A stretch of 64,000 nt of DNA from Candidatus Wolfebacteria bacterium (GTDB lineage: Bacteria > Patescibacteriota > Minisyncoccia > UBA6257 > UBA9933): positions 3,579-67,578 of the forward strand of contig JACPIO010000025.1 in NCBI GenBank assembly GCA_016188075.1. Direction: 5' to 3'. Position 1 is the first letter of the stretch. Every line of letters starts with the position of its first letter. The position numbers and the translations under genes were made by a program. The notes below the pieces were generated by a model, which had not been told where the DNA came from, did not search any database, and saw only the letters and a list, made by a program, of their open reading frames with translations. Positions 7,051 to 61,880 of this stretch are shown piece by piece.

Positions 7051-7243
7051 GATTTGGGGATAAATTGTGCATAATTTTGCAGGTACATTAAAAATTTGGC
7101 TTAAATACTTGTTTTGTGATTTATGTTTCATGATATATGAAATAGTTGACTTTGTGGGGTTGGATGCCGCATTATTAATGCTAAGTGGGGAATTGTGGAT
7201 AACTCTGGGGATAAGTAGGCAAAGCGGGGGATAAGTCGAGGTC

Positions 7244-7444
7244 GCCACATCTCCCTTCTCACTAAATTTCAGTCGCCAATAAATAAAACTTGTTTCGCTC
7301 AATTTTCCTACAAAAATTCGGTTCCCGTTCCTCCTTCGTTTCTCTCAGGATTTTCCGACCAAATTTTTGTGATTAGGAAAATTTTCACTAAACTTCGTTA
7401 ATTTATTATGGCGACTTCAAAAAGCGTTCGAAGGGAGATGTGGC
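7244..7444. mobile_element. ~200-bp MITE-like element with 15-bp terminal inverted repeats (gccacatctcccttc / gaagggagatgtggc) and nested sub-terminal IRs
   Basis: perfect 15-bp TIRs at 7244-7258 and 7430-7444; non-coding; related TIRs at 15141-15252. Confidence 0.5.
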
Positions 7445-7496
7445 TCCCGGTAAAGGGTATTATTTAAAGTAAATTTCTGGCGAAAGTATTTCGATT

Positions 7497-7536
7497 TCTA
7501 AATTCATAATTCTTAATTCATTATTCATAATTCATG
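7497..7536. repeat. 8-bp periodic array (ttcataattc units) abutting the mraZ start
   Basis: same family as the arrays at 19166-19206 and 51442-51473. Confidence 0.6.
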
Positions 7537-7971
7537 AACGCCTTTATCGGTGAATACTCGCACAATTTAGATCAGAAGGGCCGAATGGCGATTCCGGCGA
7601 AATTTAGAGAGAAGATGGTGGGCGGCGCGATTGTAACGCGCGGATTAGACCACTGCCTTTTTGTTTTTACCAATAAAGAATGGGAAGCGTTGGCGCAAAA
7701 GTTGGTAAGTTTGCCTTTGGCGCAATCAAATTCTCGGGCGTTTGTCCGTTTGATGCTCGCCGGAGCAATGGATGTGGAATTGGATAAGCAAGGCAGAATT
7801 TTAATTCCGGACTATCTAAGGGATTACGCTTGTTTGAAAAAACAGGTGGTGGTGGCTGGAATTTATAATCGTTTTGAAATTTGGGACAGCGAGGCGTGGA
7901 AGCAGTATAAAAATAAAACCGAAAGTCAGTCGGATGAGATAGCGGAGAAACTTTCGGAGTTAGGGATTTAG
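7534..7971 (+). CDS. mraZ: transcriptional regulator MraZ
   Basis: 145 aa; N-terminal IGEYSHNLDQKGRMAIP and second DKQGRILIP repeat typical of MraZ. Confidence 0.85.
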   Translation: MNAFIGEYSHNLDQKGRMAIPAKFREKMVGGAIVTRGLDHCLFVFTNKEWEALAQKLVSLPLAQSNSRAFVRLMLAGAMDVELDKQGRILIPDYLRDYACLKKQVVVAGIYNRFEIWDSEAWKQYKNKTESQSDEIAEKLSELGI

Positions 7972-7982
7972 CTTATTAGCTT
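7971..7982. repeat. left 12-bp inverted repeat (gcttattagctt) of the IVS-protein cassette
   Basis: perfect reverse complement of 8365-8376. Confidence 0.6.
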
Positions 7983-8005
7983 CATTAGCTTTTCAGGGAT
8001 TAGTC

Positions 8006-8371
8006 ATGATGGTCCATTCATACAAAGATTTAATAGTTTGGCAGAGGTCAGTTGAGCTAGTGGTCGCTGTTTATGAACTAACAGAAAAATTTCCAAAAGA
8101 AGAGATTTATGGATTGGTTTCACAAATGAGGAGAGCGGCGGTTTCAATTCCGTCGAACATCGCGGAAGGAAGATTAAGAGGAACAAGAAAAGATTTCTCG
8201 CAGTATTTAAGAATCGCGTACAGTTCGGGGGCTGAGTTGGAAACGCAAGTAGTAATAGCCAAAGCGCTTCCCAAGATGAAAAATCTCAATTATTTAAAAG
8301 TTGATTCATTATTGGAAGAAACAATGAAAATGCTGAACGTAATGATAAGGGGGTTAAATCCTAAAAGCTAA
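8006..8371 (+). CDS. four-helix-bundle protein, 23S rRNA intervening-sequence protein family
   Basis: 121 aa; motif FPKEE...QMRRAAVSIPSNIAEG...FLRIAYSSGAELETQ; inserted between mraZ and rsmH; flanked by 12-bp inverted repeats. Confidence 0.8.
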   Translation: MMVHSYKDLIVWQRSVELVVAVYELTEKFPKEEIYGLVSQMRRAAVSIPSNIAEGRLRGTRKDFSQYLRIAYSSGAELETQVVIAKALPKMKNLNYLKVDSLLEETMKMLNVMIRGLNPKS

Positions 8372-8376
8372 TAAGC
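8365..8376. repeat. right 12-bp inverted repeat (aagctaataagc) of the IVS-protein cassette
   Basis: perfect reverse complement of 7971-7982. Confidence 0.6.
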
Positions 8377-8394
8377 TATAGAAGCTAAAGGGCT

Positions 8395-9405
8395 ATGCAC
8401 CAACCGGTTCTTTTAAAAGAAACAATAGCTTTACTGGATCCGAAGCCCGGAGAATTCATTATTGATGGAACAATTGGTTCGGGCGGCCACGCAGCTAAAA
8501 TTTTTGAGAAAATTTTACCTCAAGGTAAATTGATTGGTATAGATTTAGATAAAGATAATCTTAAAAAAACAGAATCAAAAATTTTAGCTGAAATCAAAAA
8601 TGAAAAAGACCCGCCGGGGAGCGCAGCAGTAAAGATTAAAAATAATTTAATTCTGATTCAGGGAAATTACGCGGACTTACCGGAAATTCTTCAAAGCGCG
8701 GAACTACGCGGACTAAACGCAGACAAACGCGGAAAAAGAAAAGTTGATGGGTTATTACTCGATTTGGGGATGTCGTCGGAGCAGATAGAGCGGTCGGGAA
8801 GGGGGTTCAGTTTTTTGAGAAACGAGAAGTTAGACATGAGATATAACCATGAAGCAGGAAGCATGAATCATGAAGCATGGGCGACGGCAGGGGAAGTAAT
8901 AAATCGATTAAGTGAGAAGGAGTTGGCGGAGATTTTTTGGAAATACGGGGAGGAAAGATATTCGCGGCGGATCGCTAAGGGAATAGTAGAAAGTAGAAAG
9001 AGAATGGCGATTAAAACAACATTTGATCTGGTTCGCATCATAAGAAAATCAGCGCCAAAAAGTTATGAGAAGGGGCGTATACATCCGGCCACCAGAATTT
9101 TTCAGGCGCTTCGAATATATATAAACGACGAGTTGGGAAACTTAGAAAGATTGTTGAAAAATGCGCCTAATATTTTAAAAAGTGGCGGCCGGGCAGTAAT
9201 AATTTCTTTTCATTCGCTCGAGGATCGGTTAGTGAAAAATTATTTTAGAGAGATGAAAAAAGAAGGAAAAGCGGAGATTTTGACAAAAAAACCCATTATG
9301 GCTACGAGAGAAGAGGTGAAATTGAATCCTCGGTCTCGCTCCGCCAAACTTAGGGCAATAAAATTTAATTATTCTACGAAATTCGTAGACGATCGGCGAC
9401 CATGA
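8395..9405 (+). CDS. rsmH: 16S rRNA m4C1402 methyltransferase RsmH (MraW), with a low-complexity in-frame insert
   Basis: MHQPVLLKE...DGTIGSGGHA SAM-binding motif; ~25 aa longer than typical; insert SAELRGLNADKRGKRK is encoded by the ACGCGGA array at 8665-8738. Confidence 0.85.
   Translation: MHQPVLLKETIALLDPKPGEFIIDGTIGSGGHAAKIFEKILPQGKLIGIDLDKDNLKKTESKILAEIKNEKDPPGSAAVKIKNNLILIQGNYADLPEILQSAELRGLNADKRGKRKVDGLLLDLGMSSEQIERSGRGFSFLRNEKLDMRYNHEAGSMNHEAWATAGEVINRLSEKELAEIFWKYGEERYSRRIAKGIVESRKRMAIKTTFDLVRIIRKSAPKSYEKGRIHPATRIFQALRIYINDELGNLERLLKNAPNILKSGGRAVIISFHSLEDRLVKNYFREMKKEGKAEILTKKPIMATREEVKLNPRSRSAKLRAIKFNYSTKFVDDRRP
8665..8738. repeat. ACGCGGA-type periodic array inside rsmH coding sequence
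   Basis: units attacgcggactta, agcgcggaact, acgcggactaa, acgcagacaa, acgcggaaaa. Confidence 0.6.
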
Positions 9406-11395: not shown

Positions 11396-12637
11396 ACTGG
11401 TTTTTGAATAAATTGGCAAGGATTACGGTTTGGCGTTTTGAGCCGAAGATTATTGCTGTTACCGGAAGTGTCGGCAAAACCGCGACCGTGGAGAAGATCG
11501 AAGCGGTTTTGAAGCACCCGGTTTTTTTGTCAGAGAGAGATAATCGCGGTGCCACTCGCGCTCTTGGGCGATTGGCGCGATGAAGATTTAGGGCTCTTAA
11601 CTTTTAACGACTTGCCCGTCTCCCAAAAAATTAAAAAAATATTTTTTTGGACTAAGGTGATTTTAACGCCAATCATTAAATTGTTTTTTCGGCTTCGAAA
11701 AAAACATCAAGAGATTTTGATTCTCGAATACGGACTTCAGAAAAACTTGAAGATAAGAGATTTTTTGGAAATGGCCAAACCCGATATCGGAGTAGTGACG
11801 GCTGTTGGCGATATTCCGGCGCATGTCGAATTTTGGAGCGGCCCTTGGGCAGTCGCCCGAGAAAAGTCAAAAGTGGTTGAATGCCTCGACTCCGATGGTT
11901 TTGCCGTGTTGAATTTTGATGACGAGGCGGTTTTGGAGATGAAAAAGCGAACAAGGGCTAGAATCATTACTTTTGGTTTTGGCCCAGGGGCGGATGTAAG
12001 AATTATGAATTTTGAAAATCAATTCGAGAATCCCGAGTCCTACGGAATCAATTTTAAGATTGGCTACGGCGGGAGCGTGGTGCCGGTCAAGCTTCGTAAT
12101 GTTTTCGGCAAGGCCGAAGCGTATGCCGCCTCCGCGGCAGTTTGCATTGGTTTGATTTTTGATTTGAACTTGGTTGAAATTGCCGAAGCCTTGCAAAGTT
12201 CGCATTCCCTTTATTCCGGCAAGAGGATTTTAAAAGGAGTCAAAGAAACGGTGATTATTGAAGATTTGAGCGATGTTTCGCCTTTGTCAATGGATGAAGC
12301 CATTCATGTTTTGGGAGAATTTAGAGACCGAAGGAAAATCGCGGTTTTGGGAGATATGCTTGATTTGGGTAAGTGGAGCATTGAAGCTCACGAAGCCATC
12401 GGCCGGCTCACGTCCACGACCGTTGATCTTTTGTTTACGGTCGGGCCCCGGGGAAAATTAATAGCCGAGGGAGCCCGAGAAGGGGGTCTATTCAAAAATA
12501 AAATTTTAAGCTACGATACTTCGGTCGAGGCTGGAAGAAAACTTCAAGATTTATTAAAGAAAGGGGACGCGGTTTTGATAACCGGAGCCAGAGAGTTGAG
12601 AATGGGAGAGGTGGTGGAAGAAGTAAAAAGTAATTAG
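11392..12637 (+). CDS. murF: Mur ligase, MurF-like, interrupted by a frameshift at a T7 homopolymer (11522-11528)
   Basis: ORF 11392-11583 carries the P-loop TGSVGKTAT; reading continues in another frame from about 11511 (…EIIAVPLALL… then Mur middle/C-terminal domains, LGDMLDLG); the two frames overlap across the T7 run. Confidence 0.65.
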
Positions 12638-12660
12638 TAATTGGTAATTAGGATTAATTA
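12631..12660. repeat. 8-bp periodic AT-rich array (taattagtaattggtaattaggattaatta)
   Basis: related arrays at 59908-59970 and, reverse-complemented, at 23831-23855. Confidence 0.5.
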
Positions 12661-12712
12661 CTATGGCGCTTTCGTCTAGTGGTCAAGTCCCGATGTAGTC
12701 AAAAATTTATGC

Positions 12713-12785
12713 GCCGCCATCGTCTAGTGGCCTAGGACACTAGGTTCTCATCCTAGAAACCGGGGTTCGATTCCCCGTGGCGGTA
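12713..12785 (+). tRNA. tRNA-Glu (anticodon CUC)
   Basis: cloverleaf: acceptor gccgcca/tggcggt, D-arm tcgtctagtggcctaggac, anticodon loop ttCTCat, T-arm cgggg-ttcgatt-ccccg; matches bacterial tRNA-Glu. Confidence 0.85.
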
Positions 12786-12845
12786 CATAAATTTTTGATA
12801 CTACATCGAGGATCCTCGATACGACATCAAAATTAAAATTTTGGT

Positions 12846-12905
12846 CGTATCGGGAGACATCACGTTCTCAACGTGGGGACCCGGGTTCAAATCCCGGTGA
12901 GAGCA
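12846..12905 (+). other. 5'-truncated tRNA-like sequence (D-arm onward, anticodon loop ttCTCaa, good T-arm and 3' acceptor tgagagc-a) lacking a matching 5' acceptor strand
   Basis: well-formed anticodon and T arms but nothing adjacent pairs with the 3' acceptor; a separate tRNA 5'-fragment-like sequence (gcgctttcgtctagtggtcaag) lies at 12665-12690. Confidence 0.4.
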
Positions 12906-13002
12906 CAAATTTTTATTACAGTTGATTTCCGTTTTTTATTTTGCTACTTTTAGGCAGGCGGTTTTGGCCGGATTTTTTAGTTTTTAATTTTGTGTTTCCA
13001 AT

Positions 13003-15118: not shown

Positions 15119-15140
15119 CGAGTGGCTATAGCGGTGAGAA

Positions 15141-15252
15141 CCCAGCACATATCTCACCCTAAGACGTGGTTATACCACCTAAGGAAGGCGATAGCCGACT
15201 TCGTCTACCAGAAGAGGTAATACCCCAAGCAGTGATCGAGATATGTGCTGGG
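15141..15252. mobile_element. ~110-bp element with perfect 15-bp terminal inverted repeats (cccagcacatatctc / gagatatgtgctggg) between atpH and atpA
   Basis: TIRs at 15141-15155 and 15238-15252; TIR sequence related to the 7244-7444 element (shared cacat(a)tctc core). Confidence 0.5.
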
Positions 15253-15315
15253 TGCTCAAATTTATAATTAAATTTATTTAAGGTAAAAAAATATAGAAAT
15301 TTAAATAAATTTGGC

Positions 15316-16851
15316 ATGGCTTTCGAAATTGTCGAAAAACTGAAAAGGGAAATTGAATCTTTTCGGGATGAATCAAAGTGGGAAAGAGTTGGAGAAGTGA
15401 CCGAGGCAGGCGATGGCATTGTTAAGATTTCCGGCCTTCGGAATGCTTTAAGTCAGGAAATCCTTTTGATTGAAACAGCGAAGGGCGAGGCAATCGCCTT
15501 GGCCGTGAACCTCGAGGAAAATTTTATCGGCGCCATTATTTTGGGAGAAGGAGAATCGGTTAAAGTTGGTGATCGGGTTCGCCAGACTGGCCGAGTACTT
15601 TCAATTAAAGCAGGAGATGAACTGATTGGAAGAGTCGTTAATCCTTTGGGCGAACCGCTTGACGGCAAGGGCGTAATTTTTAGAGATAGTCAAAAAGTCA
15701 AAGAATATCCGCTGGAAAAAACCGCGCCGAACGTTCTTCAAAGAGAACCGGTAAAAACGCCGCTCCATACCGGTGTTAAATCTATTGACGCGATGATTCC
15801 GATCGGCCGGGGTCAGCGCGAGCTTTTAATCGGCGATCGGCAAACCGGAAAAACCGCTCTGGCCATTGATACGATTTTAAATCAAAAACAGGATTCGGCC
15901 CGGCATCAGGTAATCTGTATTTACGTGGCCATCGGACAGAAAAATTCCAAAATCGCGAAAATCCTGAAATTACTGGAAGAGTCAGAAGCTTTGAGATATT
16001 CCATCGTTGTTTCGGCCCCGGCTTCTTCTCCGGCCAGCCTCCAGTATCTCGCGCCTTTCGCCGGCTGCGCCATCGGAGAATATTTTATGGATCAGGGGAA
16101 AGACGCTTTGGTTATCTATGACGATCTTGTGAAACACGCCGATGCCTATCGCGAGTTATCTTTGCTTTTGCGCCGGCCGCCGGGACGCGAGGCTTATCCC
16201 GGTGATATTTTTTATCTTCATTCGCGCTTGCTCGAACGCGCCGCCAAGCTGAATAAAGATTACGGCGGCGGCTCGCTCACGGCTATTCCCATAATCGAAA
16301 CCAAACTCGGCGATGTTTCAGCCTATATTCCCACAAACGTTATCTCTATTACTGACGGCCAGATTTATTTGGAATCAAGTCTTTTTTACCAAGGTATTCG
16401 TCCGGCGGTGAACGTCGGTTTATCGGTTTCTCGAGTGGGTTCTTCGGCTCAGACCAAAGCAATGAAAAAAGTGGCGAGCCGTTTGCGGCTCGAACTCGCC
16501 CAATTTCGGGAACTCGCGGCTTTTGTGCAATTTGCTTCGGATTTGGACGAAGCGACTCGTCAAAAAATTCGGCGCGGCGAACTTTTGACGGAAATTTTAA
16601 AGCAAGGCGACGGCGAACCGATTCCTTTCGAAAAACAAGTCGCGATACTTTACGCGGCCCTTAACGGTTTTTTAGACGACGTTGAATTGCAGAAAATGAA
16701 AGAATTTGAAAATAAATTCATTGATTATTTGGAAAAACGTCACGATGAAGATATTTTGGAGTCAATCCGCGAAAGCGGAGAACTCTTGAAAGAAGTCGAA
16801 GACAATCTAAAATCAGCCATATTGGCGTTCAAGAACGCATTTACCCTATAA
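15316..16851 (+). CDS. atpA: F0F1 ATP synthase subunit alpha
   Basis: 511 aa; Walker A GDRQTGKT. Confidence 0.9.
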
Positions 16852-17787: not shown

Positions 17788-19206
<1,419 letters not shown>

Positions 19207-19214
19207 CGTGAAAT

Positions 19215-19454
19215 ATGAATCTAAAAATTATTTCTCTAAAGGGAGCGCAATTTGAAGGCGAGGTGGTCGGTTTCAATGTTAAAACCGCGGCTGGGGAAAT
19301 TACGATTTTGGATCATCATCGGCCGATTATTTCCTCCCTGATTTTGGGCGCGGCGGTCATCATCGGGAAAGACGAGAATCGTCAAGCAATGCCCATTAAG
19401 TCCGGTTTTTTAGAGATGGACAAAAAAAATAATTTAACCGTCCTTATTGATTGA
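19215..19454 (+). CDS. atpC: F0F1 ATP synthase subunit epsilon (N-terminal beta-sandwich domain only)
   Basis: 79 aa; operon position. Confidence 0.7.
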   Translation: MNLKIISLKGAQFEGEVVGFNVKTAAGEITILDHHRPIISSLILGAAVIIGKDENRQAMPIKSGFLEMDKKNNLTVLID

Positions 19455-19532: not shown

Positions 19533-19555
19533 GGTGGTAGCTTTAAAGCTACCAC
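19533..19555. repeat. palindrome ggtggtagctttaaagctaccac (second copy at 43817-43834)
   Basis: the 18-bp core ggtagctttaaagctacc recurs at a distant locus. Confidence 0.6.
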
Positions 19556-19644
19556 TGAAATTAAGAGCCGACGCTTTAAATCAACAAAAGAGAAGAATTT
19601 CCAAAAGTCTCCATGTCGATTGTCAATAAAGTGTTATATTTTAA

Positions 19645-21580: not shown

Positions 21581-21781
21581 GTTGATTTGCCCCTCACGGG
21601 CGTTTTTTATTTTCGTTTAGATTTCGAGGTTGATTTTTCGATATCGTACCCCCACACCAAATGTGGATAATAATTTGGCGTTGGGCAGACTGGATTCAAA
21701 CTTTCTCAATTTAATGGGTTTATCAGGCAAATTTTAAATTTCTACTAAACCAATCCACATTTGGTGTGGGGGTAAAAGATT

Positions 21782-22375
21782 TTAAGAGCGGCGTTCGAGG
21801 GATTGGCTTAAGGTTTCCGGATCGGCGAACTCGATTTCGCCGCCGGTTGGTATCCCGCGGCCCAAGCGGCTGATTTTTTTCGCAAAACCCTGTAATTCTT
21901 TCACGACAATCGAGGCATTCAAGTCTCCGTAGGTCGTTGGATTAAAAGCCAAAATTATTTCTTCGACTTGGCCCTCTTTTTTAATCAAATGTTTTAAGTG
22001 ATTCAAGCGCAGTTTTTTGCCGCTGTCCAAATCTCCGCTTTTCGACAAATCTCCCAAAATCAAATAGAGGCCATTGAATTTTTTCGTCTTTTCTATCGAA
22101 ATTAAATTAGTTTCCTTCTCGACAATCATAATTAAGTTTTTATTCCGTTTGGGATCCCGGCAAATATCGCATATATTATCTTTGTTCTGATGCACAAAAA
22201 AGCACTGGGAGCAGGTTTTTAGATAGCGCAAATCCGAAACTGCCTGAGTGATTTCTTCTATTCTATTTCGGCCTTCGCCAATAAGTTTAAAAGCCAGTCG
22301 CGTTGCTTGGCGCACTCCGATTCCCGGCAGAGCCGAGAAAATCTCAATAAATTTTTTGATGGGCTGCGTTAGCAT
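21782..22375 (-). CDS. recR: recombination protein RecR
   Basis: 197 aa; C4 zinc finger CSQCFFV...CDIC; Toprim domain. Confidence 0.85.
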   Translation of the reverse strand: MLTQPIKKFIEIFSALPGIGVRQATRLAFKLIGEGRNRIEEITQAVSDLRYLKTCSQCFFVHQNKDNICDICRDPKRNKNLIMIVEKETNLISIEKTKKFNGLYLILGDLSKSGDLDSGKKLRLNHLKHLIKKEGQVEEIILAFNPTTYGDLNASIVVKELQGFAKKISRLGRGIPTGGEIEFADPETLSQSLERRS

Positions 22376-26394: not shown

Positions 26395-26491
26395 CTTTTA
26401 TCATTGACTTTTTAATTTTTTTCTTATACCCTGTATTTAATCGGCAAGTCAGGCGATTACTGTCGTGCCTCACTATCGTTCGGCGCAAAAA

Positions 26492-26572
26492 AATACGAAT
26501 TTAACACGAAAAATACGAATGCCACGAATAAATTGATTCGTATCATTCGTGTAATTTCGTAGATTCGTATTA
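26492..26572. repeat. palindromic TACGAA/TTCGTA periodic array inserted in the P3 stem-loop of RNase P RNA
   Basis: lies between P3 strands gtcgtgcctc (26463-26472) and gaggcacga (26593-26601), making P3 about 135 nt. Confidence 0.6.
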
Positions 26573-26816
26573 TGTAAGTGGCGAGCGGCAGCGAGGCACG
26601 ATGGAGGAAAGTCCGGACACTCTCCCGATGAAAATCGGGATAAACAAGTAGCGGCTAACAGCCGTCGTCCAGCTTAGCGGGATAGAGGTGCGAGCAGTGA
26701 CGTCCCGAGACGAAAGTCGAGGGAGAGCCCGATCCCAAGCTTGACGGCTTAACTCTGCGATAGGGATAAGAAAGCAGAGGTGAAACGGCTAAATCCTTAC
26801 TGGGTGCAAGGTTGTG

Positions 26817-26844
26817 CCGAGCACATAACGCTTTATGTGCTCGG
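26817..26844. repeat. palindrome ccgagcacataacgc-tttatgtgctcgg inside rnpB (second copy at 56353-56380)
   Basis: near-identical 28-bp hairpin upstream of rpmA. Confidence 0.6.
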
Positions 26845-27009
26845 AATACCGCTAGAGCCTAAGAGTAATCGACGGCCCAGATAAATTATCGCCACCCCCC
26901 ACCACTTTTGAAAAAAAGTGGTGGGGGGACAGAATCCGGCTTATGACTTGCCGATTTTTTGTTTGTTAAACTAATTAGTGATTTTCGCCCATTGCGCTAT
27001 AATTTAAAA

Positions 27010-36583: not shown

Positions 36584-38293
36584 ATGCATCTAACCAAGGA
36601 AAATCTTAAAAAAATAATTTCCGAATCGGGCTTGGTAAGCGATGAGGATCTGCGGGTTGCCGAAAACGAGTCTTTTCGGTCGGGACAGACCTTAACAGAT
36701 GTTTTAATAGGCCGGGGCGCGCTCTCCGAACAGCTTTTGGTTGAATCTCTTTCGGATTTTTTTAAGGTTCCGATTGTTCAGCTCGAAAAACGTCGTATCG
36801 ATCGGGCCGTTCTGGAGCTCGTTCCCGAATCTTACGCGAAAAGCAAAGAGGTTGTCCTTTTTGAAATTGATGAAAATTTGAGAGAAGGCTCTTTGGCGAT
36901 GGCCGATCCCAATAATTTCGAAGTCATAAATCATCTCTCTTTAATGCTCGACCTCCGCCGGTTCAACGTTTATTTGACTACGGCATCCAGTCTTAAATTC
37001 GCCCTGAAATTTTACAAGCAGGAAATCAGCGAAGAATTTTCCAAAATCATTGAAGAGAATATTCAGGCTACGAGGGGTTTCGGCGGCACGGCGAGCGTCG
37101 GTAAATTAGCGGAATCGATTCCGATTATCAAAATTTTAGACAGCGTGATCGAGCATGCTGCCTCGCTGGGCGCCTCGGACATCCACTTTGAACCTTTCGA
37201 AGACAAACTTCTCGTGCGGTATCGTCTGGACGGCATTCTCGAGGAAATACTTTCTCTTTCCAAAGAGATAGCTCCGATACTGGTTGCCCGCATCAAAGTA
37301 ATCGCCAATCTTCAAATTGACGTTCATAACGCGCCGCAGGACGGCAGATTTCGTCACTCGCTGGAGAATCAGTTTATTGATATTCGCGTCTCGGTTGTTC
37401 CGACCTTCCACGGAGAAAAGGCGGAAATGCGGTTGCTCAAGGGATCGCTTCGGCCTCTTTCTTTGTCGGAGCTGGGATTATCCCACTCTGATTTGGAGAA
37501 ATTGACCCAAGCCATCAAAAAGCCGCATGGCTTAATTTTGGTTACCGGTCCCACTGGTTCCGGAAAAACCACGACTTTGTACGCCATTTTAGAAATTTTA
37601 AACACTCCTCGAGTTAACATTACCACCATTGAAGATCCGGTGGAGTACGAAATTCCTCGAGTGAATCAGATTCAGGTGAACGTGAAAACCGGTCTTACTT
37701 TCGCAAGCGGTCTGCGGACGATTGTCAGGCAAAATCCGGATATCGTGATGATTGGCGAAATCCGCGATCCGGAAAGCGCCGATATCGCCATTAACGCCGC
37801 CCTAACCGGCCACCTTCTGCTCTCGACGCTTCACACCAATGATGCTCCGGGCGCCGTGAGTCGACTCATAGATCTTAATGTCCAGCCGTTCCTTTTAGCC
37901 TCAACTCTCAATATGGTAATTGCCCAACGGCTCGTGAGGAGGCTGTGCAAGATTTGCGTTTCCAGTCGAACTCTTGATCCAAAAGACCAAAATACTTTGG
38001 AAAAGCAAGTGAAAGAACTGGGTTTAAATAGCGAAATTATTCCTAAGATGGTTTATGCCGCCAAGGGCTGTTCAGCATGTAGCTTCGCCGGCTATCAAGG
38101 TCAGGTCGGGATATTTGAAATTTTTAATCTAAGCGATGCCATAAGGGATCTTATAATGGAAAATGCCTCGACTCAAGCAATTAGGAAAAAAGCCCGAGAA
38201 GAAGGGATGCGAACGCTTTTTGAAAACGGAATGGAAAAGGTGACAGCTGGTTTTACTTCGCTAGAGGAAGTACTGCGGGTGGCAAGCGAATAG
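36584..38293 (+). CDS. pilB: type IV pilus assembly ATPase PilB/GspE
   Basis: Walker A GPTGSGKTTT; GspE N-domain; Asp/His boxes; ATG 36584 (track TTG start 36557 lies inside the cassette's right IR). Confidence 0.85.
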   Translation: MHLTKENLKKIISESGLVSDEDLRVAENESFRSGQTLTDVLIGRGALSEQLLVESLSDFFKVPIVQLEKRRIDRAVLELVPESYAKSKEVVLFEIDENLREGSLAMADPNNFEVINHLSLMLDLRRFNVYLTTASSLKFALKFYKQEISEEFSKIIEENIQATRGFGGTASVGKLAESIPIIKILDSVIEHAASLGASDIHFEPFEDKLLVRYRLDGILEEILSLSKEIAPILVARIKVIANLQIDVHNAPQDGRFRHSLENQFIDIRVSVVPTFHGEKAEMRLLKGSLRPLSLSELGLSHSDLEKLTQAIKKPHGLILVTGPTGSGKTTTLYAILEILNTPRVNITTIEDPVEYEIPRVNQIQVNVKTGLTFASGLRTIVRQNPDIVMIGEIRDPESADIAINAALTGHLLLSTLHTNDAPGAVSRLIDLNVQPFLLASTLNMVIAQRLVRRLCKICVSSRTLDPKDQNTLEKQVKELGLNSEIIPKMVYAAKGCSACSFAGYQGQVGIFEIFNLSDAIRDLIMENASTQAIRKKAREEGMRTLFENGMEKVTAGFTSLEEVLRVASE

Positions 38294-43622: not shown

Positions 43623-43729
43623 TGCAGTTTTAATTAAAAAATTCGAACCTTTAAGCGATGCTATCAAAAACAAAGAGCAAAGCGTTGTCAAACTGCTAAA
43701 GGTAATTATATATTGGAAATAAATTTAAC

Positions 43730-43769
43730 GCAAGCCCCGTCACTCAATTAATTGAGTGACGGGGCTTGC
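43730..43769. repeat. perfect 18-bp-stem palindrome gcaagccccgtcactcaa-ttaa-ttgagtgacggggcttgc (likely terminator)
   Basis: exact inverted repeat; followed at 43817-43834 by the ggtagctttaaagctacc palindrome also seen at 19533. Confidence 0.6.
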
Positions 43770-43912
43770 GAAGCAATCTGCCTCGCGGTTTGCTGCGGGG
43801 CAGTTAATTTTGACATGGTAGCTTTAAAGCTACCGCTGGTCAGGGCGGGGAGGCAGGTGAAGCAGCTGATTTGGGACGAGGCGGTTGGTTTGAACCAACC
43901 GCTAATCGGAAA

Positions 43913-50998: not shown

Positions 50999-52144
50999 TC
51001 ACATTTCAACGGGTTTCCCGCCTTCAATCTGAATTTTTTTCAATTTCAACACCGACGCGCGAGTCGGTGCTCCGACTCCTTCGGGACGTCGGAGTTTTCC
51101 GTTAATTAATTCCGCCTCCAAAATTTTTATTCTTTGAGGTCCACCCTTCGACGGGCTCAGGGTAAATACTCCTGGTTCGGGATTTAAAGCCCGAATTTTC
51201 CGCTCTATTTGAATCGCGATTTCTCCGCCCTCGCTCCGCGCGTTTTCTAAATCCGCTGGTTCAATAAAAGCATCTTCAGTTTTGAATTTTTTGGTATAGG
51301 TGGCTCGCGATTCGTCTTGGGGTGTGAGGTTCAATCTCCCAAATATTGACTCTAATTCATGAGGAGATTGAACCTCCCGAAATTGATTCAAAAATTCCAC
51401 CAGTAAATCGCCGCCCAATTCCGCCAATTTCCGCATTAGCGATTCATAATTCATAATTCCTAATTCATAATTCTCAAGCGCTTTTTGCGCGAGAACTGGT
51501 CCGTGATCCACTTTTTCATCCATTAAAAAAAGCGTTACGCCGGTTTCTTTTTCGCCGTTCAAAATCGCGGACTGAATAGGGGAGGGGCCGCGGTATTTTG
51601 GCAAGAGCGACGGATGAATTCCGATTGAGCCGAGCCGCGGAATCTCCAAAATTTCTTTGGGAAGAATTTTCGCGTAAGCGGCAACTACAAAGAAATCATA
51701 TTCCCGATATAATAAATTTGCCGTGGGTCCGGAATGGTTCGGGTTCGGGATTGACACCCGAGACCCCGGGGCTCGATTCCCCGCGGATCCACGGTCTTCT
51801 GATTTATCCACAAGGGGGCTTGACAACTGGTCATCGTTTAATATACTAATGTTAGGTGTCAATCCCGGATTTCTCGAATCATTCGAGGTTTCGGCAAAAG
51901 CCCCGTTTAAAGCGGGGTTTTTGGTTTTTAAATTTTCTGGTTGCCAAACCGGGATATCGTATTTTTGAGCAATAATTTTGGTAGGGGGTGATGTCAGTAT
52001 CTTTTTTCTTCCCACTGGCCGGTCGGGATTGCAAACAACCACTCCCGGCGCGAAACCGGCTTTAATCAATCTCTCCAAAATAATGGCGGCGAACTCAGGA
52101 GTACCGAAGAATACGAAATTTGGATTACGAAAATACGAAATCAT
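50999..52144 (-). CDS. fmt: methionyl-tRNA formyltransferase carrying two in-frame inserts
   Basis: FGTPEFA, HPSLLPKYRG, C-terminal domain; 381 aa versus about 315; about 65-aa GC-rich insert between the VWQP and VVAAYAKIL blocks (DNA 51721-51925); ENYELGIMNYES encoded by the 8-bp array. Confidence 0.85.
   Translation of the reverse strand: MISYFRNPNFVFFGTPEFAAIILERLIKAGFAPGVVVCNPDRPVGRKKILTSPPTKIIAQKYDIPVWQPENLKTKNPALNGAFAETSNDSRNPGLTPNISILNDDQLSSPLVDKSEDRGSAGNRAPGSRVSIPNPNHSGPTANLLYREYDFFVVAAYAKILPKEILEIPRLGSIGIHPSLLPKYRGPSPIQSAILNGEKETGVTLFLMDEKVDHGPVLAQKALENYELGIMNYESLMRKLAELGGDLLVEFLNQFREVQSPHELESIFGRLNLTPQDESRATYTKKFKTEDAFIEPADLENARSEGGEIAIQIERKIRALNPEPGVFTLSPSKGGPQRIKILEAELINGKLRRPEGVGAPTRASVLKLKKIQIEGGKPVEM
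51442..51473. repeat. 8-bp periodic array (attcataattcataattcctaattcataattc) in-frame in fmt
   Basis: same family as 19166-19206. Confidence 0.6.
51721..51925. mobile_element. ~200-bp GC-rich MITE-like element inserted in-frame in fmt, containing a plus-strand tRNA-like fold and 12-bp inverted repeats
   Basis: IR gggattgacacc (51747-51758) / ggtgtcaatccc (51855-51866); tRNA-like at 51725-51791 (acceptor gggtccg/cggatcc, anticodon arm tcggg-attgaca-cccga, T-arm cgggg-ctcgatt-ccccg, no D-arm); hairpin + T-run ccccgtttaaagcggggttttt at 51901-51922. Confidence 0.55.
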
Positions 52145-56352: not shown

Positions 56353-56380
56353 CCGAGCACATAATGCGTTATGTGCTCGG
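56353..56380. repeat. palindrome ccgagcacataatgc-gttatgtgctcgg (copy of the element inside rnpB)
   Basis: near-identical to 26817-26844; followed by a T-run. Confidence 0.6.
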
Positions 56381-61669: not shown

Positions 61670-61794
61670 CCCTCCTTTTTTGCCCCCACACCAAACGAGA
61701 AGACACGCTTTCTCGTTATGGTGTGGGGGCTTGACAAATTTTTCAAGCTTCGTATAGAATAGGCTGTCGATAAAGAAAGGTCAAAGTTAAAGTA

Positions 61795-61880
61795 TCGATG
61801 CGAATATACGAATTATACTAATGATACGAATTTTATTCGTATAATTCGTACATTTGTATATTGGTATCGATACGCGCGAA
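61795..61880. promoter_or_regulatory. palindromic TACGAA/TTCGTA array upstream of groES (candidate operator; no CIRCE present)
   Basis: perfect IR tacgaattatac (61807-61818) / gtataattcgta (61839-61850) plus flanking gtatcgat repeats. Confidence 0.45.

What the first reader, a model, noticed from the sequence alone, without database searches (positions are those of the whole stretch)
7244..7444. Two MITE-like elements with related 15-bp terminal inverted repeats (doc-mraZ spacer and atpH-atpA spacer)
The element at 7244-7444 has TIRs gccacatctcccttc / gaagggagatgtggc plus nested sub-terminal inverted repeats. The element at 15141-15252 has TIRs cccagcacatatctc / gagatatgtgctggg. It sits between atpH and atpA, genes that are normally tightly linked. 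The two TIRs share a cacat(a)tctc core. Both elements are non-coding and roughly 110-200 bp.
Basis: seen in the sequence. Interest (0 to 1): 0.5.

Follow-up and report, generated by a model that had tools for sequence, protein, structure and literature searches.

The report
Two unrelated palindromic inserts in operon spacers
Two stretches of non-coding DNA bounded by inverted repeats have been inserted into transcribed spacers of the cell-division and ATP-synthase operons of an uncultured Wolfebacteria-like bacterium; they are small palindromic insertion elements of a kind common in this lineage, but they are not two copies of one transposon family.

Summary
Both inverted repeats are real and far beyond chance. 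Neither element matches an Rfam family, and neither is conserved in relatives.

E1 (7244-7444) is an orphan 201-bp nested fold-back. It lies in the mraZ 5' leader, between the conserved MraZ operator repeats and the start codon. That site is empty in about a third of relatives. Elsewhere it holds at least six unrelated inserts, most bounded by inverted repeats. The closest relative has one, and another relative has a GIY-YIG gene cassette there.

E2 (15135-15258) is not an orphan. Its arms are the two halves of a 28-nt palindrome that recurs in the rpmA leader (56353-56380) and in the RNase P RNA gene (26817-26844). The sequence from E2 to the atpA start is paralogous to the rpmA leader. Relatives have atpH-atpA spacers with a median of 24 nt, against 197 nt here.

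The E1/E2 arm similarity is not significant. I found no target-site duplications, no matching transposase and no second copy of either interior.

Best reading: these are REP/MITE-like palindromic insertions that are tolerated because their stems close them off in the mRNA. How they move is unknown. "MITE-like" is partly supported; "related TIRs" is not.

The parts
7146..7175 (+). Predicted mraZ/dcw promoter (TTGACT, 18 nt, CATTAT)
   Evidence: Consensus scan. The TTGAC and the -10 element are conserved at the same place in relatives.
7184..7240 (+). MraZ-operator-like repeats (GTGGGG / TGTGGATAA / TGGGGATAA / GGGGGATAAGT) at about 10-nt spacing. This is the conserved left boundary of the insertion site.
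   Evidence: Aligns at 73-91% identity with the mraZ upstream regions of many relatives. That these are MraZ binding sites is inferred from published MraZ operators.
7244..7444 (.). E1: orphan 201-bp nested fold-back element in the mraZ 5' leader
   Evidence: Perfect 15-bp arms, nested inverted repeats and a palindromic interior. No homologue found anywhere searched; the IMG/VR scan with its 15-nt arm gave only single unpaired hits.
7244..7258 (+). E1 left arm, GCCACATCTCCCTTC
7430..7444 (+). E1 right arm, GAAGGGAGATGTGGC
7445..7533 (+). AT-rich tract between E1 and the mraZ ATG. Positions 7494-7537 are a dispersed AT-rich repeat.
   Evidence: Self-BLAST finds copies at 19166-19230, 51441-51473, 11997-12017 and 32610-32647. 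Four independent Logan contigs begin at 7505. Similar AT-rich tracts precede the mraZ ATG in relatives that have long leaders.
15123..15320 (+). Module that contains E2. The 5' flank GGCTATAGCGGT resembles the antisense of the RNase P RNA gene next to its hairpin. The 3' part (TGCTCAA, AT-rich tract, TTGGCATGGC) is paralogous to the rpmA leader.
   Evidence: In one search, excluding the palindrome, 45 of 74 columns are identical (z = 5.2, 0 of 1000 shuffles), and 21 control upstream regions all score lower.
15135..15258 (.). E2: 21-bp stem (16 bp perfect) enclosing a unique 82-nt interior, between atpH and atpA
   Evidence: The interior has no similarity to RNase P RNA or to anything else searched.
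56353..56380 (-). Compact copy of the E2 palindrome (CCGAGCACATAACGCATTATGTGCTCGG) in the rpmA (L27) 5' leader. A TTGACA-17-TAATAT promoter-like site lies upstream, read by eye.
   Evidence: rpmA identified by Pfam.
26817..26844 (+). Copy of the same palindrome inside the RNase P RNA gene (26441-26958), aligned by cmscan to a canonical hairpin of RF00010. Calling that hairpin P16/P17 is my reading of the model.
   Evidence: It is 27 of 28 identical to the rpmA-leader copy. An identical hairpin with identical flanks is present in the closest relative, L221, at 19550-19577.
7969..8378 (+). Neighbouring unit bounded by a 14-bp inverted repeat (TAGCTTATTAGCTT) that carries a 121-aa PF05635 '23S rRNA intervening sequence protein' ORF, between mraZ and rsmH
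   Evidence: Among the 80 mraZ loci from other species, none has a PF05635 ORF between mraZ and rsmH.
36273..36585 (+). Unit bounded by a 19-bp inverted repeat that carries a single-domain GIY-YIG nuclease ORF and sits on the start codon of a pilB-like T2SSE gene. Included as context for how such units insert in this lineage.

Best explanation
E1 and E2 are two independent, non-coding palindromic insertions of the REP/MITE-like kind that litter intergenic spacers of this Wolfebacteria-like CPR genome and its relatives. They are not two members of one family.

E1 is an orphan nested fold-back. It landed between the MraZ operator and the mraZ start codon, a position where small inserts, most of them bounded by inverted repeats, are repeatedly gained, lost and replaced in related genomes.

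E2 is the stem of a genome-specific 28-nt palindrome, split by 82 nt of unique sequence. It arrived in front of atpA as part of a roughly 190-bp module copied from, or sharing an origin with, the rpmA leader.

Shown: these are insertions relative to relatives. E2's arms and flanks are repeated. The interiors are not conserved. The arms stay perfectly complementary even where family members differ.

Inferred:
1. Both elements are co-transcribed with their operons.
2. The long stems fold each insert into a closed hairpin. An AT-rich single-stranded tract is left in front of the start codon, so expression survives. RNase III may process the stems.
3. Spread happens at the DNA level, by insertion at or next to start codons or by recombination between palindrome copies. 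A structure-specific nuclease, such as the single-domain GIY-YIG proteins carried by sister elements, may catalyse it.
For: Inverted repeats in the window
- The window has 66 12-mer inverted-repeat seeds against 0-3 in shuffles.
- Stems bound non-coding DNA, a GIY-YIG ORF, a PF05635 ORF and a tRNA.

E1 site
- The promoter and operator are conserved in relatives.
- The distance from operator to ATG is 10 nt or less in 16 of 50 relatives, 11-100 nt in 14, and more than 100 nt in 20.
- The long leaders fall into at least six unrelated sequence types, most bounded by inverted repeats. One is a GIY-YIG cassette, in L032.
- L017 and L020 have near-identical flanks but completely different inserts.
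- The closest relative (MraZ 87% identical) has an unrelated 163-bp element with 15-bp arms at the same point.
- Two of the insert types have copies at other loci.

E2
- atpH-atpA spacers in 73 relatives have a median of 24 nt. 50 are 45 nt or shorter and only 7 are 150 nt or longer. The three closest are -4, 86 and -1 nt.
- The palindrome recurs at 56353-56380 and 26817-26844, with a compensated C/G difference.
- Leader paralogy with rpmA has z = 5.2.
- Contigs assembled independently from the same species break at E2's arm: two start at 15238, one ends at 15265 and one ends at 15127. This suggests a repeat or a structural polymorphism there.

Family traits in related genomes
- Outer 5'-CCC...GGG-3' ends are enriched: 21 of 254 pairs, against 7.5 +/- 2.6 for shuffled arms and 3 pairs with the opposite polarity.
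- ORF-less derivatives share arms with GIY-YIG-bearing units: L014 with window 36276, and L074 with L016.

No evidence of RNA-level selection on the sense strand
- The stems are almost purely Watson-Crick.
- The antisense strand of E1 folds 16 kcal/mol better than the sense strand.

Not an assembly artefact
- E1 and E2 are identical in independent Logan assemblies.
Against: - No target-site duplication at either element.
- No second copy of either interior. I could search only 64 kb of this genome plus about 1.8 Mb of other genomes.
- No transposase, RAYT or nuclease whose flanks match the E1 or E2 arms. The window's only GIY-YIG gene has different arms.
- The palindrome copy in the RNase P RNA gene aligns to a canonical helix rather than to an insertion. 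The direction of copying is therefore unknown, and a functional reason for the shared sequence is possible.
- A shared rpmA/atpA leader that extends to the start codon could be a regulatory module rather than selfish DNA.
- Relatives of this species are distant: no AtpH homologue, AtpA at most 71% identical, MraZ at most 87%. Presence or absence could not be tested within the species.
Confidence: 0.55

Rival explanations
1. The elements are host-selected cis-acting RNA elements. The stems are processing, stability or translation-control structures, for example RNase III sites or 3'-end protectors that uncouple atpBEFH from atpAGDC and modulate dcw expression. The palindrome shared by the rpmA leader, the atpA leader and RNase P RNA would be the binding site of a common trans-acting factor.
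For: - Both elements lie in transcribed spacers of essential operons, just upstream of AT-rich tracts and start codons.
- The rpmA and atpA leaders are paralogous right up to TTGGCATGGC.
- The hairpin is 27 of 28 identical to a canonical RNase P RNA helix that is conserved in the closest relative.
- Long stems also enclose a tRNA here and in L023, which looks like a processing stem.
- In related genomes a 57-60-nt unit with an ACCCTGTTAAATA stem has covarying inner hairpins.
- The TGCTCAA flank is always on the 3' side in the sense orientation.
Against: - There is no conservation of E1 or E2 in relatives. Most relatives have short spacers.
- The E1 site holds unrelated sequences in different genomes, and nothing in a third of them.
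- There are almost no G-U pairs, and the antisense strand of E1 folds better.
- No Rfam family matches.
Confidence: 0.25
2. The elements are classical MITEs: deletion derivatives of a DDE-transposase insertion sequence, mobilised in trans through their terminal inverted repeats, with E1 and E2 belonging to one family.
For: They have perfect terminal inverted repeats, a size of 110-200 bp, no ORF, and they are insertions relative to other genomes.
Against: - No target-site duplication.
- The E1/E2 arm similarity is not significant.
- No other copy of either interior.
- In about 1.8 Mb of related loci no element with matching ends was found; protein searches there used only MraZ, RsmH, PF05635 and GIY-YIG queries, so transposases were not specifically sought.
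- Only the GIY-YIG and PF05635 profiles were run against every window ORF of at least 50 aa (one hit each); Pfam was run on about 16 selected ORFs, so other ORFs were not screened for a transposase.
- The perfect complementarity of the arms persists even where family members differ, which is atypical of transposase-binding ends.
Confidence: 0.07
3. The elements are small RNA genes. Each stem-bounded unit would be cut out of the operon transcript to yield a stable non-coding RNA, as seems to happen for the stem-enclosed tRNA-Glu.
For: The structures are very stable. There is the analogy with the tRNA enclosed by a 21-bp stem at 12691-12808 and in L023.
Against: - The interiors have no homologues and no Rfam match.
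- The E1 interior is simply a continuation of the palindrome.
- No independent promoter or terminator signals were found.
Confidence: 0.08
4. The elements are assembly or amplification artefacts, that is, fold-back chimeras.
For: Contigs of the same species break at inverted-repeat arms.
Against: Identical E1 and E2 sequences occur in independent assemblies from different sequencing runs (L001, L002) and in the NCBI MAG.
Confidence: 0.02

Closest known systems
REP / BIME elements (repetitive extragenic palindromes) of Proteobacteria
   Same: These are short palindromes repeated in transcribed intergenic spacers, often as inverted pairs separated by variable linkers. They fold into stem-loops in mRNA. 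They have no target-site duplication and no ORF. The E2 arms behave like such a palindrome: three copies in 64 kb, with one pair split by a linker.
   Different: No RAYT (Y1 transposase) gene was seen. Copy number in the whole genome is unknown. One copy coincides with a canonical helix of RNase P RNA. E2 came with about 70 nt of leader sequence that is also duplicated.
Correia/NEMIS (Neisseria) and ERIC/YPAL (enterobacteria) palindromic MITE-like elements (comparison from my own knowledge)
   Same: These are 100-170-bp non-coding elements with long terminal inverted repeats, inserted in operon spacers. They are co-transcribed, fold into long hairpins that RNase III or RNase E can process, and differ in presence or absence between relatives. 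E1 resembles them most.
   Different: Those families have hundreds of near-identical copies, and Correia elements have a TA duplication. E1 is a singleton in all data searched and has no duplication.
Ssn nucleases and their NTS/SRM hairpin repeats (Chenal et al. 2025, PMC11893778)
   Same: Single-domain GIY-YIG genes of about 90 aa are flanked by inverted hairpin-forming repeats, with an IS-like architecture, and orphan repeats are scattered in intergenic DNA. The window and related genomes contain GIY-YIG genes bounded by inverted repeats and ORF-less derivatives with the same arms. Some related loci (L071, L081, L135, L117) carry arms that look like the SRM consensus (my comparison by eye).
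   Different: The E1 and E2 arms do not match the SRM consensus (CGTCATTCCCGCG...GCGGGAATC), by eye. They are not individually hairpin-forming, and they do not match the arms of the window's own GIY-YIG unit. The subfamily of this GIY-YIG protein (cd10448) could not be tested. Its nearest solved structures are UPF0213 and SLX1 proteins.
Intervening sequences (IVS) of 23S rRNA genes carrying a PF05635 ORF (comparison from my own knowledge)
   Same: These are insertions bounded by inverted repeats in a transcribed region, closed by a long stem that RNase III removes. The neighbouring unit at 7969-8378 carries the very protein family named after them.
   Different: Here the inserts sit in mRNA spacers and leaders, not in rRNA. 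E1 and E2 have no ORF.
STRR repeats inside cyanobacterial RNase P RNA genes (comparison from my own knowledge)
   Same: A genome-wide short repeat family also occurs within the rnpB gene.
   Different: Those are tandem heptamer repeats inserted in a peripheral helix. Here a 28-nt palindrome coincides with a canonical hairpin of the Rfam model, which I read as P16/P17.

Membership tests
MITE (prokaryotic miniature inverted-repeat transposable element) | Terminal inverted repeats | tested here: met
   15-bp arms for E1 and 16-bp arms (21 bp with one mismatch) for E2, all perfect over the stated core.
MITE (prokaryotic miniature inverted-repeat transposable element) | Target-site duplication flanking the element | tested here: not met
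   E1 flanks are ...gtcgaggtc | tcccggtaa.... E2 flanks are ...gctatagcgg | aatttataa.... Neither shows a direct repeat. A weak TGGC(T)AT(A/G)GC repeat flanks the larger E2 module, but the rpmA copy has it too, so it is part of the module.
MITE (prokaryotic miniature inverted-repeat transposable element) | Small size and no coding capacity | tested here: met
   201 bp and 124 bp. The longest internal ORFs are 12 and 3 codons. There is no remnant of a GIY-YIG coding sequence.
MITE (prokaryotic miniature inverted-repeat transposable element) | Several similar full-length copies in the genome | tested here: inconclusive
   No second copy of either interior exists in the 64-kb window or in related loci. 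The E2 arms and flanks recur twice in the window. The rest of this genome could not be searched. Contig breaks at the E2 arm hint at more copies.
MITE (prokaryotic miniature inverted-repeat transposable element) | A cognate autonomous IS with the same ends | tested here: not met
   Nothing with E1-like or E2-like ends was found in the window or in about 1.8 Mb of related loci.
REP/BIME-like repeated palindrome | A short imperfect palindrome repeated at several extragenic transcribed sites | tested here: met
   This applies to the E2 arms only. The motif CC(C/G)AGCACATA...TATGTGCT(G/C)GG occurs at 15140-15253, 26817-26844 and 56353-56380. The E1 arms are not repeated.
REP/BIME-like repeated palindrome | Association with a RAYT (TnpA-REP) gene | not tested
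   The window's ORFs were not screened for Y1 transposases, and the rest of the genome is unavailable.
Ssn / SRM system | The repeat matches the SRM/NTS consensus and flanks a cd10448 GIY-YIG gene | tested here: not met
   By eye, the E1 and E2 arms differ from CGTCATTCCCGCG...GCGGGAATC (consensus from PMC11893778). The only GIY-YIG gene in the window is flanked by CCCAGTAACTCAACTTCAA, which matches neither arm.
Rfam cis-regulatory RNA or ribozyme families | A match to a curated covariance model | tested here: not met
   There are no hits at gathering thresholds, and only chance-level hits at E up to 10.
Conserved structured leader or intercistronic RNA | Presence at the orthologous site in relatives, with covariation | tested here: not met
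   E1 is not similar to any leader insert in relatives. E2 is absent from 73 related atpH-atpA spacers.
RNase III-excised intervening sequence (IVS-like) | A long terminal stem that is cleaved in the transcript | not testable with these tools
   Stems of 15-21 bp are predicted. Testing cleavage needs RNA data.

The most novel reading that the evidence does not exclude
Paceibacteria-type CPR genomes may host a class of cassettes bounded by inverted repeats that insert exactly at start codons.

GIY-YIG-bearing members always show the junctions ATG|CC(C)AG...CTGG(G)|(T)ATG. In three of the homologues checked the nuclease ORF was called from that upstream ATG and reads in frame through the arm. 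Closure of the stem could re-juxtapose the host ribosome-binding region and the regenerated ATG.

On this reading E1, E2 and the many mraZ-leader inserts are ORF-less relics of such events. The palindrome shared by the atpA leader, the rpmA leader and RNase P RNA would mark a recognition site for the machinery or for a common RNA-binding factor.
Probability: 0.15. Interest if true: 0.7.

Novelty: new variant of a known kind. Interest (0 to 1): 0.45.

Why it matters
CPR/Patescibacteria genomes are usually described as small, streamlined and poor in mobile DNA. Here even the leader of the cell-division operon, the ATP synthase operon and the neighbourhood of the RNase P RNA gene carry palindromic inserts. 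The mraZ leader turns over between close relatives.

This matters for annotating these genomes. Long 'intergenic' gaps inside conserved operons are insertions, not missing genes. It also matters for assembly, because contigs break at these elements.

The elements may help explain how essential operons tolerate insertions: stem closure combined with an AT-rich landing pad in front of the start codon. The link to single-domain GIY-YIG nucleases and the start-codon junctions gives a concrete, testable lead on how such elements move.

Tried and rejected
- **Rfam.** Searches of the whole window and of both regions at permissive thresholds found nothing relevant. The same was true for seven related loci.
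- **tRNA scan.** No tRNA-like structure in the elements.
- **DNA similarity.** Self-BLAST of the window, and BLAST of E1, E2 and E3 against all fetched loci, found no copies of the interiors.
- **Arm searches in IMG/VR.** Exact 15-mer searches gave 8 and 31 loci, each with a single unpaired match, which I treat as chance hits.
- **Phage collection.** blastn found no match.
- **AtpH searches.** AtpH has no homologue other than itself among 5.8 billion proteins. An AtpH-based metagenome scan found nothing. Within-species presence or absence of E2 could therefore not be tested.
- **Synteny.** None of the 80 mraZ loci from other species contains the atp operon.
- **GIY-YIG remnants.** A search for GIY-YIG coding remnants inside E1, E2 and similar ORF-less elements was negative.
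- **E1 against leader inserts of relatives.** Tests against L014, L015, L017, L008, L086, L221, L039 and L030 were not significant; the best had z = 2.5 and 1.8.
- **E2 interior against RNase P RNA.** Not significant.
- **Shared E1/E2 core.** Not significant directly. An element in L028 resembles both arms (p about 0.002 and 0.008), but that does not survive correction for about 250 arms compared.
- **attC-like reading of the ACCCTGTTAAATA arms.** Rejected, because the GTT/AAC cores are in the wrong arms.
- **Apparent RNase P motif in L039.** It turned out to lie in protein-coding sequence that I read as gyrB.
Full report
**Observation**

E1 has perfect 15-bp arms at 7244-7258 and 7430-7444, separated by 171 nt. 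Nested inverted repeats lie inside it, and its interior is itself palindromic (z = 5.2). E2 has perfect 16-bp arms at 15140-15155 and 15238-15253. These extend to 21 bp with one mismatch, 15135-15258.

Only about 0.03 perfect 15-mers and 0.009 perfect 16-mers of this kind are expected by chance in 64 kb. Predicted folds are far more stable than shuffles, with z = -7.9 for E1 and -6.4 for E2. Pfam confirms the flanking genes: MazE-like and Fic/Doc, then MraZ; ATP synthase b and delta, then alpha. Identical E1 and E2 sequences occur in independent Logan assemblies of other sequencing runs, so they are not assembly artefacts.

**Organism and setting**

The window comes from a CPR/Patescibacteria genome. 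Sources name its proteins 'Candidatus Wolfebacteria bacterium'. The closest MraZ in any collection is 87% identical, the closest AtpA is 71% identical, and AtpH has no detectable homologue.

The window is unusually rich in long-range inverted repeats. It has 66 12-mer seeds against 0-3 in shuffles. Besides E1 and E2, such stems bound:

| Coordinates | What the stem encloses |
|---|---|
| 7969-8378 | 121-aa PF05635 '23S rRNA intervening sequence protein' ORF, between mraZ and rsmH |
| 36273-36585 | 85-92-aa single-domain GIY-YIG ORF |
| 12691-12808 | tRNA-Glu |
| 21647-21774 | another non-coding unit |

**E1**

A TTGACT-18-CATTAT promoter lies at 7146-7175. Repeats of GTGGGG / TGTGGATAA / TGGGGATAA at about 10-nt spacing follow it, up to about 7240. 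Both are conserved in the mraZ upstream regions of dozens of relatives. By analogy with published MraZ operators this is the operator. E1 therefore lies in the 5' UTR of the dcw operon, not in a generic spacer.

In 16 of 50 relatives the last repeat abuts the start codon (10 nt or less). In 14 the distance is 11-100 nt, and in 20 it exceeds 100 nt. In the window it is 298 nt.

The long leaders fall into at least six unrelated sequence types, most bounded by their own inverted repeats. In L032 the occupant is a GIY-YIG gene cassette. L017 and L020 have near-identical promoters, operators and pre-ATG tracts, yet carry entirely different inserts between them. The closest relative, L221, carries an unrelated 163-bp element with 15-bp arms at the same point. 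It has no PF05635 ORF between mraZ and rsmH.

Two of the insert types also occur at other loci in other genomes:
- the GC-rich core seen in L014, L015 and L017, also found in L008 and L086;
- the ACCCTGTTAAATA unit, found three times in L020 and in L024, L034 and L051.

The site is therefore a hot spot of gain, loss and replacement. It is not a conserved structured leader.

E1 itself has no significant similarity to any of these inserts. It has no other copy in the window and no target-site duplication. Its antisense strand folds 16 kcal/mol better than the sense strand, which argues against selection on the mRNA structure.

**E2**

In 73 related loci the atpH-atpA spacer has a median of 24 nt. 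50 are 45 nt or shorter and 7 are 150 nt or longer. The three closest relatives have -4, 86 and -1 nt. The window has 197 nt. The few long spacers elsewhere hold other, unrelated hairpins or small ORFs.

The key result is that E2's arms are not unique. The palindrome CCGAGCACATAA-NNNN-TTATGTGCTCGG occurs at two further places in the window:
- at 56353-56380, in the 5' leader of rpmA (L27, minus strand);
- at 26817-26844, inside the RNase P RNA gene (26441-26958; RF00010, 76 bits, E = 2e-23, below the gathering score).

In the RNase P RNA gene, cmscan aligns the palindrome to a canonical hairpin, which I read as P16/P17. The two compact copies are 27 of 28 identical. E2's stem (CCCAGCACATAT / ATATGTGCTGGG) differs from them by a compensated change.

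The similarity extends beyond the stem. From E2's 3' arm to the third codon of atpA, the sequence aligns with the rpmA leader (TGCTCAA...TAAATTT...AAATTTARATAWA-TTGGCATGGC). Excluding the palindrome, 45 of 74 columns are identical (z = 5.2, 0 of 1000 shuffles), and 21 control upstream regions all score lower. The 12 nt upstream of E2 (GGCTATAGCGGT) match the antisense of the RNase P RNA gene next to its hairpin, and the rpmA copy also has ATAGCG there.

E2 is therefore the stem of a genome-specific repeated palindrome, split by 82 nt of unique sequence. That interior has no similarity to RNase P RNA or to anything else searched. E2 sits within a module of about 190 bp (15123-15320) that is paralogous to the rpmA leader.

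Contigs assembled independently from the same species break at this module. Two start exactly at 15238, one ends at 15265 and one ends at 15127. For comparison, four contigs start at 7505, inside a demonstrably dispersed AT-rich repeat. This suggests further copies or a structural polymorphism at E2, but it is indirect evidence.

**Are E1 and E2 related?**

The shared 'cacat(a)tctc' string is not above chance (p about 0.07-0.16), and the interiors are unrelated. One element in L028 (arms TCCCGCACATCTCCGCA) resembles both (p about 0.002 and 0.008), but this does not survive correction for the roughly 250 arms compared.

E2 does share a broader trait with many inverted-repeat-bounded units in related genomes: an outer 5'-(A/T)CCC...GGG(T/A)-3' end. 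This occurs in 21 of 254 pairs, against 7.5 +/- 2.6 for shuffled arms and 3 pairs with the opposite polarity. E1 does not share it.

**Sister elements and a lead on mobility**

Homologues of the window's GIY-YIG protein (55-78% identical) in other metagenomes carry homologous arms with compensated substitutions. Their junctions follow one pattern. In five of the six units examined (window, L164, L166, L206, L210) a host ATG is followed by CC(C)AG, then the element, then CTGG(G), then (T)ATG and the host gene. The sixth (L214) has ATGGG|CCCGG on the left and a GTG host start on the right. In three homologues the nuclease ORF was called from that upstream ATG and reads in frame through the arm.

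ORF-less derivatives with the same arms and junctions exist (L014 5626-5763). Another GIY-YIG and ORF-less pair shares ACCCGCCTAA arms (L016 and L074). Other short non-coding units (ATCCCACACATAAC in L008 and L020; ATCCCGTTAGA in L023) carry an ATG at both junctions, read from the sequence without checking the downstream ORFs.

Insertion at start codons would place an element between an operator that abuts the ATG and the ATG itself, which is where E1 and its counterparts lie. For E1 and E2 this is an inference, because neither has an ATG at its junctions. The published Ssn/NTS system (single-domain GIY-YIG nucleases that cut single-stranded DNA, flanked by hairpin repeats; PMC11893778) is the nearest described analogue. 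The arms here do not match its consensus.

**Mechanism**

Shown:
- Both elements are insertions relative to relatives.
- E2's arms and flanks are repeated.
- The arms remain perfectly Watson-Crick even where family members differ.
- There is no sense-strand bias in folding.
- There is no Rfam match.

Inferred:
- Both elements are co-transcribed.
- The stems close the insert into a hairpin, which RNase III may cleave.
- An AT-rich unstructured tract remains in front of the start codon, which would make the insertions tolerable.
- Spread occurs at the DNA level, through hairpin- or cruciform-specific cutting or through recombination between palindrome copies.

The main rival is that the stems, and especially the palindrome shared by rpmA, atpA and rnpB, are host-selected RNA elements recognised by a common factor. 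The data do not exclude this, and I give it about a quarter of the probability.

**Verdict**

It is partly wrong: they are not one family, not classical MITEs, and have neither a target-site duplication nor a transposase partner. E2 is a split copy of a local palindrome inside a duplicated leader. I class this as a new variant of a known kind (REP-, MITE- or Correia-like elements) in a lineage where such elements have hardly been described, and I rate the interest as moderate.

Noticed in passing
window 36273-36585; L164 3001-3316; L166 2940-3250; L206 10001-10320; L210 10001-10330; L214 4985-5290; L014 5626-5763: A single-domain GIY-YIG ORF is bounded by 19-bp perfect inverted repeats (CCCAGTAACTCAACTTCAA). 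Homologues in other genomes keep the arms through compensated changes. Five of the six units examined have the junctions ATG|CC(C)AG...CTGG(G)|(T)ATG on the start codon of a host gene (L214 has ATGGG|CCCGG and a GTG host start). In the window and in L206 the host gene is the same pilB-like T2SSE gene. In three homologues the nuclease ORF was called from the upstream ATG, in frame through the arm. L014 holds a 138-bp ORF-less derivative. This looks like a start-codon-targeting homing or IS-like cassette.
   Followed up: partly
window 7969-8378: A 121-aa PF05635 / TIGR02436 'four helix bundle, 23S rRNA IVS protein' ORF is bounded by a 14-bp inverted repeat that begins on the mraZ stop codon. It is inserted between mraZ and rsmH. 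Among the 80 mraZ loci from other species, none has a PF05635 ORF in that spacer.
   Followed up: partly
window 26441-26958: The RNase P RNA gene scores below the Rfam gathering threshold (76 against 100 bits). It carries a 125-nt insertion in an early helix (P3 by my reading) made of TACGAAT-type palindromes. These recur in the intergenic region 61780-61860. Another hairpin of the gene (P16/P17 by my reading) is the palindrome shared with the rpmA and atpA leaders.
   Followed up: partly
window 12660-12910; L023 5316-5441: An intact tRNA-Glu(CTC) lies inside a stem of about 21 bp. A string resembling a tRNA 5' half lies just upstream. A second tRNA-like sequence lacking an acceptor stem lies at 12842-12897 (Rfam 31.8 bits; not called by ARAGORN). 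L023 also has a tRNA-Glu enclosed by an inverted repeat (CCCCGCACTAAAA).
   Followed up: no
window 7494-7537, 19166-19230, 51441-51473, 11997-12017, 32610-32647: A dispersed AT-rich repeat (TTCATAATTC-type) occurs at these sites. One copy directly precedes the mraZ ATG. Four independent short-read contigs start inside that copy, at 7505.
   Followed up: partly
window 21647-21774 and 61682-61730; L054 1150-1813; L210 17480-17545: A third arm family is (A)CCCCCACACCAAA. In the window it forms a 128-bp non-coding unit with 22-bp arms just 3' of the recR gene (21782-22375, minus strand). It also forms a compact hairpin after a response-regulator gene.
   Followed up: partly
L020 1773-1832, 9799-9895, 16686-16742; L024 479-536; L034 17105-17161; L051 11430-11570: A 57-60-nt unit has an invariant 13-bp outer stem (ACCCTGTTAAATA / TATTTAACAGGGT) and two inner hairpins that covary between copies. 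It lies in intercistronic spacers of several distantly related CPR genomes. It has no Rfam match. It is a candidate for a new structured element.
   Followed up: partly
L014 3572-3760, L015 9775-9925, L017 3072-3215, L008 18190-18275, L086 655-810 (minus); L221 9794-9956, L039 9816-9986, L030 1000-1165: Two GC-rich conserved cores are each enclosed by outer stems that differ between copies. One is ...GGGAAACCATGCCCGCTC.GCCTGCG.... The other is ...CTCCGCAATACTCAC.... They occur in mraZ leaders and at other loci. They are either unknown structured RNAs or mobile-element families.
   Followed up: partly
L027 18142-18218, L031 18159-18234, L036 11784-11919: Long perfect stems enclose a conserved loop, GAGCACTCA...GGAGGTCACCA, in three genomes. 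The identity of this motif is unknown.
   Followed up: no
window 7194-7202: One of the conserved operator repeats upstream of mraZ is a perfect DnaA-box sequence (TGTGGATAA). It is conserved in relatives.
   Followed up: no
window 43729-43770; 8492-8590: There is a 42-nt perfect palindrome at 43729-43770. A 16-bp perfect inverted repeat lies inside the rsmH coding sequence at 8492-8507 and 8575-8590. The latter lies within the RsmH (Methyltransf_5) reading frame and was not examined further.
   Followed up: no
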